7,211 nucleotides of DNA from positions 1 to 7,211 of IMG/VR virus record IMGVR_UViG_648276652_000008. One strand, 5' to 3'. The notes under the pieces are model-generated. The model did not search any database and was not told where the DNA came from. It worked only from the letters and a program-made list of their open reading frames with translations. Of the stretch, positions 3,601-6,205 are shown piece by piece. Position 1 is the first letter of the stretch, and each line of letters opens with the position of its first letter. The position numbers were made by a program, and so were the translations under genes. The DNA is from a virus (taxonomy: Duplodnaviria > Heunggongvirae > Uroviricota > Caudoviricetes).

Positions 3601-5522
3601 TCATCCTCTCCGGATAAGGCACGGGCGTAATCTGCCAGTGTTTTCTTGTTGGTTGCTGCACCATCCTCTTCCTGCAGGCTCGCCAGCAGCGCACTGAGAT
3701 CCAGCTGCCAGCGGGAAATACTGATGCGCAGCGCCGCCAGCGCATAAACGAAGCAGTCGAGTGCCTCATTGCGTCGCTTTTTGCTGTCCCACAGTATTTT
3801 TTTCCTGCCATCCACCCATTTTTCGACCTGCTCTTCAGCAGTCAGCTGCTGCGCTTCGGTCAGATCAAAAATATCCGGGTTATTCGGGAAGTGAACGGCA
3901 CCGGGAAGCGGTTCATCCCCTTCCGGCGTCAGTGTGAAGCGGTTATAAATCTGCTCTTTCGCGGTATCCGTACCGATTTCGGTAAGGTAAACCCCGTTTT
4001 TGTTTCGCTTACGTGGCATGCTGGCCACAGGCTTACCGTAGACGGATGCCCCTTTAATGGGGATCACCCGGAACAGCCCATGTTTTTTCGAGCGTTCATA
4101 CACAATGGTCGGATCAATCCCGCCAGTATCCCAGCAGATACGGGATACCGACATTTCTGCACCATTCCGGCGGGTATAGGTTTTATTGATGGCCTCATCC
4201 ACACGCAGCAGCGTCTGTTCATCGTCGTGGCGGCCCATAATAATCTGCCGGTCAATCAGCCAGCTTTCCTCACCCGGCCCCCATCCCCATACGCGCATTT
4301 CGTAGCGATCCAGCTGGGAGTCGATACCGGCGGTCAGGTAAGCCACACGGTCAGGAACGGGCGCTGAATAATGCTCTTTCCGCTCTGCCATCACTTCAGC
4401 ATCCGGACGTTCGCCAATTTTCGCCTCCCACGTCTCACCGAGCGTGGTGTTTACGAAGGTTTTACGTTTTCCCGTATCCCCTTTCGTTTTCATCCAGTCT
4501 TTGACAATCTGCACCCAGGTGGTGAACGGGCTGTACGCCGTCCAGATGTGAAAGGTCACGCTGTCCGGCGGCTCAATCTCTTCACCGGATGACGAAAACC
4601 AGAGAATGCCATCACGGGTCCAGATCCCGGTCTTTTCGCAGATATAACGGGCATCAGTGAAGTCCAGTTCCTGCTGGCGGATGACGCAGGCATTATGTTC
4701 GCAGAGATAAAACACGCTGGAGGGATCATCCGGCGTCCATTTGAGGCCAAACGACGTCTCTTTATCGCCAAATTTAAGGTACTGCTCCTCCCCGCAGTGC
4801 GGACAGGCAACATGAAAACGCATAAAATGCGGGGATTCACTGGCTGCACGCTCAATCTGGCAGGTGCCTCTCACTTTGGGGGTGGAGCCACGGATGGACT
4901 TTGGCCAGACCGAGCCTTCAATACGTTTGTCGCCAAGGAACGTCGGAGAGCCTTCCTGTTCAATATCCTCATCAAAGGCAGCAAGTTCATCATAACCCGC
5001 CACATCCACCGACTTTTCACGGTAGTTTTTTGCCGCTTTACCGCCCAGGCACCAGAAGCCACGACCATTGGAAAAACGCTTCATGGTGAGCGTGTTATCC
5101 CGGTGCTTTTTGCCATACCACGGAGCCAGCGCCAGCAGCAACGGAATATCACGAATAGTCGGCTCAACGTGGGTTTTCATAAAGTTCTCGGCATCACCAT
5201 CCGTCGGCAACCAGATAAGGGTGTTGCGCTGCTTATGCTCTATGAAGTAGGCATAAACACCCAGCAGCATTTTGGAATAACCGACACGGGCAGACTTCAC
5301 CACATTCACCTCACGGATGTAGTCGCTGCCCATCGCATTCATGATGGCCCGCTGAAAGGGCAGTGTTTCCCAGCGCCCTTCCTGGTATGCGGATTCTTTT
5401 GGGAGATAGTAATTGGCATCCGCCCATTCAACGGGGGTCATTGGCAATGGTCTTTTCAGGACTGAGAGACCCGCCTTCACTGCCAATACGAAATTATTCA
5501 TCTGTATTTCTGTAATACTCAT
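3597..5522 (-). CDS. A: Terminase large subunit A (ATPase/endonuclease), 641 aa, with a non-lambda N-terminal ~30 residues
   Basis: From ...[45 protein letters not shown]... to the C-terminal ...[12 protein letters not shown] the protein is lambda gpA as recalled. The N-terminus [31 protein letters not shown] aligns gaplessly with lambda MNISNSQVNRLRHFVRAGLRSLFRPEPQTAV but is divergent. ATG at 5522 gives the lambda length; the ORF-track start at 5528 is a TTG two codons upstream. Confidence 0.95.
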
Positions 5523-6000
5523 CCGCAAATTCCTTCATTTTTTCAGCGGACTCAACGCATTTATTAGCCCCCTTCGCAACCAGCTCTTTTAGATAAGCCA
5601 ATTGTCTGCCTGTCAATTCAGGGAATTTTCTTTGCATCGAAAGCGGAATACTGTCCAAAACAGATGCCAGTTCTCCGGATAACCGAGACAGGGCAAAAAT
5701 AGAGAAAGCTGTATCAATCACCTTATGCTCTGCAACCTGGTTTTTTAACCGCTGAGCAATAGCCTGTTCTTCCGTCAGGTTAACCCTGGCCTGAAGTAGC
5801 CTTTCCTCAAGATCATTTTCACCACCTGAAGATTTCTGGTTTTGTTGACGTCGCTCGCGATCTATCTCCAGTACAGTTTTAACGTCATAGAAAACCTCTC
5901 TCCCCCGGCGCTCAACAGGAGGAACACCCCATTTATCAAATGCCTGTACTGAGATACCGATGGAGGAGGCCATGTCGCTTTTATTCAATAAAAAGGCCAC
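5494..6000 (-). CDS. Terminase small subunit, Nu1-like but divergent from lambda Nu1 (phage 21 / NohA-NohD type suspected); about 168 aa
   Basis: C-terminal half ...KVIDTAFSIFALSRLSGELASVLDSIPLSMQRKFPELTGRQ... aligns with lambda Nu1 ...ETAFCTFVLSRIAGEIASILDGLPLSVQRRFPELENRH.... N-terminal LNKSDMASSIGISVQAFDKWGVPPV aligns with the Nu1 winged-HTH VNKKQLADIFGASIRTIQNWQEQGMPV. The 3' end overlaps the A start by 29 nt (26 nt in lambda). Start is uncertain: in-frame GTG at 6000 follows GGAGG and is preferred over the ORF-track TTG at 6024 or the ATG at 5973. Confidence 0.8.
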   Translation of the reverse strand: MAFLLNKSDMASSIGISVQAFDKWGVPPVERRGREVFYDVKTVLEIDRERRQQNQKSSGGENDLEERLLQARVNLTEEQAIAQRLKNQVAEHKVIDTAFSIFALSRLSGELASVLDSIPLSMQRKFPELTGRQLAYLKELVAKGANKCVESAEKMKEFADEYYRNTDE

Positions 6001-6033
6001 AGCCCCTCCATAAACCACCGGCAAAAAAGCAAT

Positions 6034-6042
6034 ACAACAACC
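6034..6042. promoter_or_regulatory. cosB candidate small-terminase binding element (ACAACAACC), R1-position equivalent
   Basis: 9-bp motif ACAACAACC, about 35 bp upstream of the Nu1-like start; one of three copies spaced like lambda R1/R2/R3. Confidence 0.45.
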
Positions 6043-6099
6043 ACGTTTTTTGTAAAACCCTCTGATTTTACATGCTTTTTCGTATAAGAAAGATCATCA

Positions 6100-6108
6100 G
6101 GTTGTTGT
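6100..6108. promoter_or_regulatory. cosB candidate small-terminase binding element, inverted copy (GGTTGTTGT), R2-position equivalent
   Basis: Exact reverse complement of the 9-bp motif at 6034..6042 and 6159..6167, located between them. Confidence 0.45.
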
Positions 6109-6158
6109 GTTTATTTTTCTTTCTTATTACTTATCAAGTAGATATATCAAACGATAAA

Positions 6159-6167
6159 ACAACAACC
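6159..6167. promoter_or_regulatory. cosB candidate small-terminase binding element (ACAACAACC), R3-position equivalent
   Basis: Second direct copy of ACAACAACC, 39-47 bp from the cohesive-end sequence. An AT-rich stretch with ATCAA cores (about 6110..6155) lies between this copy and the inverted copy, where lambda has the IHF site I1. Confidence 0.45.
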
Positions 6168-6205
6168 ATCACCTCAAAAAAACTCGTAAATAGCGAAAAC
6201 CCGCG

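What the first reader, a model, noticed from the sequence alone, without database searches (positions are those of the whole stretch)
5430..6205. Packaging-specificity cassette swap: non-lambda cosB, Nu1-like small terminase and A N-terminus, grafted onto lambda-identical cosN and A/W/B/C
cosN and its immediate flanks are lambda-like, and A is essentially lambda gpA from about residue 31 onward. In between, the sequence past ~30 nt from cosN, the whole small-terminase gene and the first ~30 codons of A are clearly homologous to lambda but strongly divergent. In lambda the small subunit binds cosB through its N-terminal winged HTH and contacts the N-terminal region of gpA, so the three divergent parts form one co-varying unit, as in the classic lambda/phage 21 specificity difference. 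The joint inside A (about 5430) is a sharp mosaic boundary.
Basis: partly seen in the sequence, partly recalled or inferred. Interest (0 to 1): 0.55.

Follow-up and report, generated by a model that had tools for sequence, protein, structure and literature searches.

The report
N15-type packaging module on lambda heads
A lambda-like E. coli prophage carries lambda's head genes but has the DNA-recognition site, small terminase subunit and first ~28 codons of the large subunit of a different, already described (N15/"Monarch") packaging type; this is a clean but ordinary case of modular exchange between phages.

Summary
Against lambda, the first 31 bp from the cohesive end are identical. Window 6186..5446 (minus strand) is about 50% identical and not alignable by blastn. 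The next 5233 nt (A from codon ~27, then W, B, C, D) are 98.0% identical. Synonymous divergence in A jumps from 0.73 (codons 1-30) to 0.045 (codons 31-130), so this is recombination, not fast protein evolution. E. coli C41 has the same backbone with a lambda-type block, so the replacement has two ends.

The block is not phage-21-like. Its DNA-recognition half is the N15/"Monarch" type described by Feiss et al. (2015). It has the N15 recognition helix, three exact GGTTGTTGT R sequences in the lambda R3/R2/R1 layout, and an IHF-like site where phage 21 has I1. The block is itself two sub-modules. cosB plus TerS codons 1-87 is 91% identical to a Klebsiella prophage. TerS codons 88-168 plus TerL codons 1-~28 is a subunit-interface pair unlike lambda, 21, N15 or C7.

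About 21 of 5,426 complete E. coli genomes carry it, annotated as terminase. The window's own copy has an IS66-family element in gene D. Verdict: new member of a known kind, modest interest.

The parts
6241..6247 (-). cosQ heptamer GGGTCCT, 30 nt upstream of cohesive-end base 1, the same spacing as in lambda
   Evidence: Read directly from the sequence. Window 6252..6218 is 91% identical to lambda 48468-48502. The role of cosQ is taken from PMC4669245.
6206..6217 (-). cosN cohesive-end sequence GGGCGGCGACCT, 12/12 identical to lambda; N15 differs at 2 positions
6187..6205 (-). Conserved flank of cosN (phage bp 13-31), identical to lambda. The left edge of the replaced block (J1) lies at bp 31-34, window about 6184-6187.
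   Evidence: Alignments with lambda and with C41. The same stretch is conserved in phage 21, C7 and Klebsiella prophages.
6159..6167 (-). R3 core GGTTGTTGT at phage bp 51-59 (context GATGGTTGTTGTTTTATC). It matches N15 R3 (GAGGTTGTTGTT, bp 48-59), shifted by 1 bp.
   Evidence: N15 R3 was defined by block mutations in PMC4669245.
6132..6144 (+). IHF-consensus match TATCAAGTAGATA (8 of 9 specified positions) at phage bp 74-86: candidate I1 between R3 and R2. A second 8/9 match lies next to it at 6145-6157.
   Evidence: It has the same position and orientation as the annotated I1 of phage 21 (bp 72-86) and is conserved in the C7 prophage. The match count alone is not above chance; the evidence is positional.
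6100..6108 (+). R2 core GGTTGTTGT in inverted orientation, phage bp 110-118 (phage 21 R2 is at bp 107-122)
6034..6042 (-). R1 core GGTTGTTGT in direct orientation, phage bp 176-184
   Evidence: R1 is conserved at bp 188 in the C7, E. albertii and Klebsiella prophages.
5494..6000 (-). Small terminase subunit (TerS, Nu1 family): 168 aa, GTG start preceded by GGAGG, stop codon included. Codons 1-45 (5866-6000) form an N15-type winged helix-turn-helix. The last 40 codons (5497-5616) are the presumed TerL-binding end.
5690..5740 (-). Internal joint J2 inside TerS (about codons 87-103). Upstream of it the nearest relatives are Klebsiella/C7-type prophages; downstream they are not.
   Evidence: Window versus Klebsiella L076: 91% identity for codons 1-87 and 59% afterwards, Fisher p 4e-19. 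The ~80% E. coli relatives stop matching at window 5690.
5446..5522 (-). Divergent 5' end of the large terminase gene A/TerL (codons 1 to ~26; [30 protein letters not shown]). It overlaps the TerS 3' end by 29 nt and is the presumed TerS-binding segment.
5437..5445 (-). Joint J3 in A (codons 27-29): identity to lambda rises from about 55% to 98% or more. It sits at the start of the universally conserved [14 protein letters not shown] coding stretch.
3597..5436 (-). Remainder of A/TerL (641 aa in all, ATPase and nuclease domains), 98% identical to lambda A
1..212 (-). Not part of the module: end of an IS66-family element inserted in head-decoration gene D. It marks this copy of the prophage as probably defective.

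Best explanation
The window is the cos and head-gene region of a lambda-like E. coli prophage whose packaging-initiation module is a different allele from lambda's. The block of about 740 bp between cos bp ~31 and codon ~28 of the large terminase gene is homologous to lambda's but highly diverged. The head genes downstream are 98% lambda.

The block has two functional halves. Half 1 is cosB plus the first ~87 codons of TerS. It is the N15/'Monarch' DNA-recognition type: a winged helix-turn-helix with the N15 recognition helix, and a three-part cosB (R3, IHF site, inverted R2, R1) whose R sequences are GGTTGTTGT. Inferred mechanism, by analogy with lambda and N15: TerS dimers bind R3 and R2 across an IHF-induced bend and position TerL to nick the lambda-type cosN.

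Half 2 is the C-terminal third of TerS plus the first ~28 residues of TerL. This is a matched subunit-interface pair that lets this TerS recruit an otherwise lambda-type TerL.

The mosaic arose by recombination in short sequences conserved among all lambda-like phages: the cosQ/cosN core on one side and the [14 protein letters not shown]-coding stretch of A on the other. The anatomy, the joints, the relatives and the purifying selection are shown here. DNA-binding specificity, IHF use, the TerS-TerL contact and viability are inferred.
For: Discontinuity against lambda: 31 identical bp, then about 50% identity, then 98.0% over 5233 nt. pS is 0.73 for A codons 1-30 and 0.045 for codons 31-130.

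Two-ended replacement: the C41 prophage shares the upstream flank (90% over 1028 nt) and A-D (98%), but carries a block 98.6% identical to lambda.

N15/Monarch type: TerS residues 1-44 differ from N15 gp1 at 8 positions, and GISVQAFDKW is identical. The whole window has only three GGTTGTTGT matches, all exact, at phage bp 51, 110 (inverted) and 176. About 0.05 exact copies of a given 9-mer are expected in 7.2 kb. The IHF-like site lies at bp 74-86, as in annotated phage 21. No N15-style rR2 copy lies inside the gene. The same layout occurs in C7, E. albertii and Klebsiella prophages, whereas Trabulsiella prophages show the N15 'simple' layout, R3 plus rR2. PMC4669245 describes exactly these two architectures and the Monarch group.

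Two halves: 91% against 59% identity to Klebsiella L076 on either side of TerS codon ~87, p 4e-19. The same DNA-binding type is paired with at least four different TerS-C/TerL-N types.

Against: No experiment shows that this chimeric terminase works, or what it packages. The IHF site is only a consensus-level match; the number of such matches in the window is at chance level. The correlation between TerS C-terminus and TerL N-terminus across 20 distinct loci (Mantel r 0.90, partial r 0.83) is confounded because the two segments are physically adjacent. The left joint is less clean than the right one: the upstream flank is only 82-90% identical to lambda and C41, and cosN and its flank are conserved in all types. 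The window's own copy has an IS66-family insertion in D. I could not obtain the Monarch sequence (PMC4461450 is not held), so assignment to that group rests on the published description.
Confidence: 0.8

Rival explanations
1. One reading: a single co-varying three-part unit of phage-21-like or wholly new packaging specificity, grafted into lambda.
For: The three parts are contiguous and all diverge from lambda. The lambda/21 precedent is real (PMC4669245; annotated sites).
Against: TerS is 27-28% identical to phage 21 gp1, and its R sequences and recognition helix are N15-type. NohA and NohD are lambda-type. The block splits into two halves with different nearest relatives. N15 and the C7 and Klebsiella prophages show the halves re-assorted.
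Confidence: 0.08
2. A single crossover in A, not a cassette. Everything upstream of A codon ~28 (lysis region, cos, TerS) comes from one non-lambda parent and the head genes from a lambda-like parent. The apparent left boundary at cos reflects only functional conservation of cosN.
For: Upstream of cos nothing is 98% lambda: the DUF1398 gene is 82% identical, 6270-6665 is absent from lambda, and the C41 flank is only 90% identical. cosQ, cosN and ~30 bp are conserved in every type.
Against: Against C41, identity drops from about 90% to about 50% exactly at cos bp ~31 and returns to 98% at A codon ~27. Carriers of the block have three different upstream modules, with homology starting at window 6609 or about 6250-6270. 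So the cos region does behave as an exchange point.
Confidence: 0.25
3. A dead hybrid: the chimeric terminase is non-functional and the block is a decaying relic in defective prophages.
For: The window's copy has an IS66-family element in D. One relative (MEI7BO1-21) is a deleted remnant.
Against: ORFs are intact with a good ribosome-binding site. Non-synonymous change is far below synonymous change. About 21 genomes from cattle, humans, yak, pig, rat and seawater carry it at 96-100% identity. EC43, BCE049 and 0-4 have complete head, tail and lysis gene sets.
Confidence: 0.1
4. Divergence in place: rapid or diversifying evolution of Nu1, cosB and the A N-terminus without recombination.
For: These segments evolve faster than the TerL core in all comparisons (pN 0.21 against 0.045).
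Against: Synonymous divergence jumps from 0.045 to 0.73 within a few codons. Non-coding cosB changes at the same edge. Half of the block is 91% identical to a Klebsiella prophage.
Confidence: 0.02

Closest known systems
'Monarch' group of N15-like prophages (Feiss et al. 2015, Virology 482:260, as described in PMC4669245)
   Same: N15-type TerS recognition helix and R3. Complex three-part cosB with R3, an IHF site, inverted R2 and R1. No rR2 inside the TerS gene. Lambda-like cohesive end.
   Different: I could not retrieve the Monarch sequence, so identity to that group is not measured. Here the module is joined at A codon ~28 to a 98% lambda head-gene block, and it carries its own TerS C-terminus/TerL N-terminus pair.
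Phage N15 gene 1 / cosB
   Same: The DNA-binding domain is 80-82% identical with an identical recognition helix. The R3 sequence GGTTGTTGTT lies at the same distance from cosN, within 1 bp. The protein is 168 aa long in both.
   Different: N15 has the 'simple' cosB (R3 only, plus rR2 inside the gene; TerS starts at bp 89). Its cosN differs from lambda's at 2 positions. Its TerS C-terminal half and TerL N-terminus are lambda-type. Overall TerS identity is 47%.
Laboratory hybrids lambda-21 hy51 and lambda-N15 hy4 (PMC4669245)
   Same: A lambda backbone whose left end (cosB plus the TerS DNA-binding part) is replaced, which changes packaging specificity.
   Different: In the lab hybrids the crossover lies inside Nu1 (about 600 bp), so the TerS C-terminus and all of TerL stay lambda. 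In the natural mosaic the whole TerS and the first ~28 codons of TerL are replaced (about 740 bp).
Phage lambda Nu1 / cosB and phage 21 gp1 / cosB
   Same: Same family (Pfam Phage_Nu1). Same cos geometry: R3 at about bp 50-65, I1 at about 72-86, inverted R2 at about 107-122, then R1, then the TerS start, with the TerS and TerL genes overlapping.
   Different: Different R sequences and recognition helix. TerS is 38-39% identical to lambda Nu1 and 27-28% to phage 21 gp1. R1 and the TerS start lie about 26 bp further from cosN.
Prophages of Pluralibacter gergoviae ATCC 33028 (L008) and a related metagenome contig (L073)
   Same: Nearest relatives of the subunit-interface half. The last 40 residues of TerS are 82% identical and TerL residues 1-30 are 67% identical. 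The cosB is N15-type.
   Different: Their whole head block is only about 77% identical to the window at nucleotide level, with no joint in A. Their R sequences are degenerate, and their cosN is N15-like (GGGCGACGTCCG).

Membership tests
Nu1-type small terminase (Pfam PF07471 Phage_Nu1) | Match to the family profile above the curated cut-off | tested here: met
   77 bits against a cut-off of 30, E 1.7e-21, covering residues 6-148.
Nu1-type small terminase (Pfam PF07471 Phage_Nu1) | [quoted passage not shown] | tested here: met
Nu1-type small terminase (Pfam PF07471 Phage_Nu1) | Gene lies between cos and a gpA-type large terminase gene, and overlaps it | tested here: met
   TerS is at 6000..5494. 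TerL is at 5522..3597 and has the GpA_ATPase and GpA_nuclease domains. The overlap is 29 nt, against 26 nt in lambda.
N15/Monarch packaging-specificity group (PMC4669245) | TerS recognition helix identical to that of N15 gp1 | tested here: met
   GISVQAFDKW is identical in the window and N15. It is conserved in over 90% of 65 relatives.
N15/Monarch packaging-specificity group (PMC4669245) | R3 matching N15 R3 (GAGGTTGTTGTT, bp 48-59) at the lambda R3 position | tested here: met
   GATGGTTGTTGTT, with its core at bp 51-59: a 1-bp offset from N15.
N15/Monarch packaging-specificity group (PMC4669245) | Monarch sub-type: three R sequences with R2 inverted, and no rR2 inside the TerS gene | tested here: met
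   Exact copies at bp 51 (direct), 110 (inverted) and 176 (direct). There is no further copy in the window, even allowing 1 mismatch.
N15/Monarch packaging-specificity group (PMC4669245) | [quoted passage not shown] | tested here: inconclusive
   An 8/9 consensus match at bp 74-86 has the same position and orientation as annotated phage 21 I1, and is conserved in C7. The number of consensus matches in the window is not above chance, and binding was not tested.
N15/Monarch packaging-specificity group (PMC4669245) | Packaging behaviour: packages its own and lambda DNA but not phage 21 DNA, and is not packaged by lambda or phage 21 terminase | not testable with these tools
   This needs helper-packaging assays such as those of Table 6 in PMC4669245.
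Phage 21 packaging specificity | Phage-21-type R sequences (TTTCATGTCGG...) and the gp1 recognition helix | tested here: not met
   The R sequences differ entirely. TerS is 27-28% identical to phage 21 gp1.
Lambda-like cos phages (12-nt 5' cohesive ends) | cosN and cosQ sequences and their spacing | tested here: met
   cosN is 12/12 identical to lambda. GGGTCCT lies 30 nt upstream, as in lambda. Actual nicking was not tested.

The most novel reading that the evidence does not exclude
The C-terminal third of TerS plus the first ~28 residues of TerL would form a further, orthogonal subunit-assembly specificity, distinct from the lambda, phage 21 and C7-type pairs. Combined with N15-type DNA recognition, it would insulate this phage's terminase from subunit mixing and cross-packaging with co-resident lambda-like prophages. 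The natural joint at codons 27-29 would then show that TerL's determinant for choosing its TerS lies within about 28 residues.
Probability: 0.35. Interest if true: 0.45.

Novelty: new member of a known kind. Interest (0 to 1): 0.3.

Why it matters
Modular exchange among lambdoid phages is textbook, and both the lambda/21/N15 packaging specificities and the 'Monarch' complex cosB are published. The finding therefore adds an example, not a principle.

Its practical value is that nature has already built a near-isogenic construct: 98% lambda A/W/B/C/D driven by a Monarch-type cosB and TerS. That makes questions left open in PMC4669245 directly testable with lambda genetics. Does an N15-type TerS use R2, R1 and IHF when they are present? 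Is the N15 asymmetry (it packages lambda DNA but is not packaged by lambda) retained with a complex cosB?

The three joints (cos bp ~31, TerS codon ~87-103, TerL codon ~28) also mark, in natural sequence, the borders of the DNA-recognition unit and the subunit-interface unit of terminase. The module is rare: about 0.4% of complete E. coli genomes, and no deposited phage genome.

Tried and rejected
(1) Phage 21 as source or type: rejected (TerS 27-28% identical, different R sequences).

(3) Any deposited phage carrying the block: none. The best DNA hits are N15 gene 1 (74% over 128 nt) and Enterobacter phage MStein-2023a. The best protein hit is N15 at 49%.

(4) I first attributed a ~99% upstream match to the C7 prophage. 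It was the second record in the same file (L006, a deleted remnant of the same prophage type). Corrected.

(5) A Mantel test for co-variation of the TerS C-terminus and TerL N-terminus gave r 0.90, but I do not count it as evidence of functional coupling, because the segments are adjacent and TerS-middle against TerL-N gives r 0.92.

(6) dN/dS ratios could mostly not be computed because synonymous sites are saturated. I used pN against pS instead.

(8) Rfam found nothing in the window. The promoter/terminator scan showed only one strong hairpin, at 6573-6609.

(9) The Virology 2015 paper that defines Monarch (PMC4461450) is not held, so there is no direct sequence comparison.

(10) Direction of transfer: the Pluralibacter/L073 lineage has the same interface type on a head block uniformly ~77% identical to the window. 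The window's arrangement could therefore be ancestral and lambda's the replacement. Synonymous saturation prevents a decision.
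Full report
WHAT IS IN THE WINDOW. On the minus strand the window reads like the left end of a lambda-type genome. In order it holds a DUF1398 gene (6778-7188, on the plus strand), a 400-bp stretch without convincing genes, and then cosQ (6247..6241) and cosN (6217..6206). A 205-bp cosB follows, then the small terminase gene (TerS, 6000..5494) and the large terminase gene A/TerL (5522..3597). After these come W, B, C/Nu3 and a truncated D. 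Pfam assigns TerS to Phage_Nu1 (E 1.7e-21) and TerL to GpA_ATPase plus GpA_nuclease. The identical region lies in a complete-looking prophage of E. coli EC43, where RefSeq annotates the same ORFs.

CHECK OF THE OBSERVATION. Against lambda (NC_001416), blastn finds two matches: lambda 1-34 to window 6217..6184 at 97%, and lambda 788-6020 to window 5445..213 at 98.0% over 5233 nt. It finds nothing in between. A forced global alignment shows bp 1-31 identical. Thirty-column identities then run at 0.3-0.67 through cosB, all of TerS and the first ~26 codons of A, and rise to 0.87-1.0 from window 5441 onward. Within the 98% block, 250-nt bins range from 95% to 100%. The proportion of synonymous differences from lambda is 0.73 for A codons 1-30 and 0.045 for codons 31-130. 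A step like that at silent sites, together with the change in non-coding cosB at the other edge, means recombination and not accelerated protein evolution. I place the joint in A at 5437-5445 (codons 27-29).

IS IT A TWO-ENDED CASSETTE? Lambda itself is a poor reference for the left side. Upstream of cos the window matches lambda only in the DUF1398 gene (82%) and in cosQ-cosN (91%), and 6270-6665 has no lambda counterpart. Moreover cosQ, cosN and the next ~30 bp are conserved in lambda, 21, C7-type and Klebsiella prophages alike. A 'lambda-identical cosN' therefore says nothing about ancestry. The prophage of E. coli C41 gives a fair comparison. It shares the upstream kilobase with the window (90% over 1028 nt, window 7210..6184) and A-D (98.0%), but between these it carries a cosB-Nu1-A' block 98.6% identical to lambda. 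Relative to that backbone, the window differs by replacement of one ~740-bp block whose edges lie at cos bp ~31-34 and A codon ~27. The right edge is flanked by near-identical sequence. The left edge is flanked by sequence that is only 90% identical, so the history on that side is less certain.

WHAT TYPE IS THE BLOCK? It is not phage 21: TerS is 27-28% identical to gp1. It is not K-12 NohD or NohA either, which are lambda-type. The only phage DNA hits to the block are N15 gene 1 and an N15-like Enterobacter phage. At protein level, TerS residues 1-44 differ from N15 gp1 at 8 positions and share the helix-turn-helix segment GISVQAFDKW exactly. The C-terminal half resembles none of lambda, 21 or N15.

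In cosB the 9-mer GGTTGTTGT occurs three times, all exact, and nowhere else in the window even with one mismatch allowed. The copies are at phage bp 51-59 (direct), 110-118 (inverted) and 176-184 (direct). N15's experimentally defined R3 is GAGGTTGTTGTT at bp 48-59 (PMC4669245). An IHF-consensus match (8 of 9 specified positions) lies at bp 74-86. That is the same place and orientation as the annotated I1 of phage 21 (bp 72-86), and it is conserved in the C7 prophage. The R3, I1 and R2 positions are nearly the same as those of phage 21 (50-65, 72-86, 107-122).

THE BLOCK IS TWO SUB-MODULES. Compared with a Klebsiella prophage (L076, which has a 21-like head block), the window is 91% identical over TerS codons 1-87, and 80-90% over cosB. 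It is only 59% identical over the rest of TerS and the start of TerL (Fisher p 4e-19). The ~80%-identical E. coli relatives likewise stop matching at window 5690. Across loci, the N15-type DNA-binding domain is found with at least four different pairs of TerS C-terminus and TerL N-terminus: window-type, C7-type, a 21-like type in Klebsiella, and lambda-type in N15 itself. In this set I saw no locus that pairs a TerS C-terminus of one type with a TerL N-terminus of another.

[quoted passage not shown] The correlation I measured between the two interface segments (Mantel r 0.90) cannot by itself prove functional coupling, because the segments are adjacent and overlap at DNA level. The nearest relatives of the interface half are prophages of Pluralibacter gergoviae and a metagenome contig. 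There the last 40 TerS residues are 82% identical and TerL residues 1-30 are 67% identical, and the entire head block is uniformly ~77% identical to the window. For that reason the direction of the 'graft' is open. The window's arrangement could be the older one and lambda's block the newcomer.

IS IT FUNCTIONAL? The evidence is indirect but consistent. The ORFs are intact and a GGAGG precedes the GTG start. Non-synonymous differences are far below synonymous ones (TerS 0.12 against 0.78; TerL 1-30 0.21 against 0.78). About 21 of 5,426 complete E. coli genomes, from cattle, humans, yak, pig, rat, seawater and wastewater, carry the block joined to the same lambda-type A at 96-100% identity. At least three different lysis/accessory modules lie upstream of it, in prophages with complete head and tail gene sets. 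The window's own copy, however, has the end of an IS66-family element inserted in gene D (window 1-212; D reads ...WPEA|GNRLI*), so this particular prophage is probably defective.

MECHANISM (INFERRED). By analogy with lambda and N15, TerS dimers bind R3 and inverted R2 across an IHF-induced bend, with R1 as an accessory site. Bound TerS positions TerL, held through the TerS C-terminus and the TerL N-terminal ~28 residues, to nick the lambda-type cosN. The lambda-type remainder of TerL then docks on the lambda-type portal. From the N15 experiments (Table 6 of PMC4669245), one would predict that lambda and phage 21 terminases do not package this DNA, while this terminase may package lambda DNA. 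None of this was tested here.

VERDICT. The thing is a new member of a known kind: an N15/Monarch-type packaging-initiation module on a lambda head-gene backbone, already annotated generically as terminase subunits in RefSeq. Interest is modest. Its main value is as a natural near-isogenic system for open questions about N15-type recognition of a complex cosB, and as a natural map of terminase module borders.

Noticed in passing
window 1-212 and 196-492: The end of an IS66-family element (start of the tnpA accessory gene, 100% identical to many E. coli copies) is inserted in head-decoration gene D. The D ORF ends ...YEDVLWPEA|GNRLI* in place of lambda's ...WPEAASDETKK. Homology to lambda and to EC43 stops at window 213, so this copy of the prophage is probably defective.
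   Followed up: yes
window 6573-6609: A perfect 16-bp-stem hairpin (TTACAGAAGCCCTTCA...TGAAGGGCTTCTGTAA) in the gene-poor stretch upstream of cos. Its edge (6609) coincides with the point where one group of related prophages (BCE049, A35 and others) begins to match the window, so it may mark another mosaic joint or a terminator.
   Followed up: partly
window 6270-6665: About 400 bp between the DUF1398 gene and cosQ has no counterpart in lambda, 21, C7 or Pluralibacter loci, but is present (~90%) in the C41 prophage and in EC43. It has no Rfam hit and no convincing ORF; RefSeq annotates nothing there in EC43.
   Followed up: partly
window 6778-7188 (+): A DUF1398 gene (YdfO/YbcV family, 136 aa) sits next to cos on the opposite strand, 82% identical to lambda p78. 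The same family occupies this position in lambda, DLP12 (ybcV) and Qin (ydfO). Its function is unknown.
   Followed up: no
L071 (E. coli 0-4) 7183-8812: In one carrier of the same packaging module, the slot just upstream of cos holds a pair of genes annotated 'sce7726 family protein' and 'beta family protein' instead of Bor/DUF1398. This may be an accessory or defence cargo at the cos-proximal moron site.
   Followed up: no
Genome-contig loci L037-L041, L043, L045, L049, L050, L053, L058-L067: Many assemblies of unrelated organisms (Paenibacillus, Shewanella, Kitasatospora, Oceanobacillus, Chromatium and others) contain short contigs, or ~48.5-kb contigs, 98-100% identical to lambda Nu1/A. These are almost certainly lambda DNA contamination or spike-in, not prophages.
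   Followed up: no
L008 (Pluralibacter) 2794-3000 and L073: In the Pluralibacter/metagenome relatives the R sequences are degenerate (AGTTGTTGT, GGTTGTTAT, with no clear R1), and cosN is N15-like (GGGCGACGTCCG), although TerS keeps the N15 recognition helix. This may be an intermediate between the complex and simple cosB forms.
   Followed up: partly
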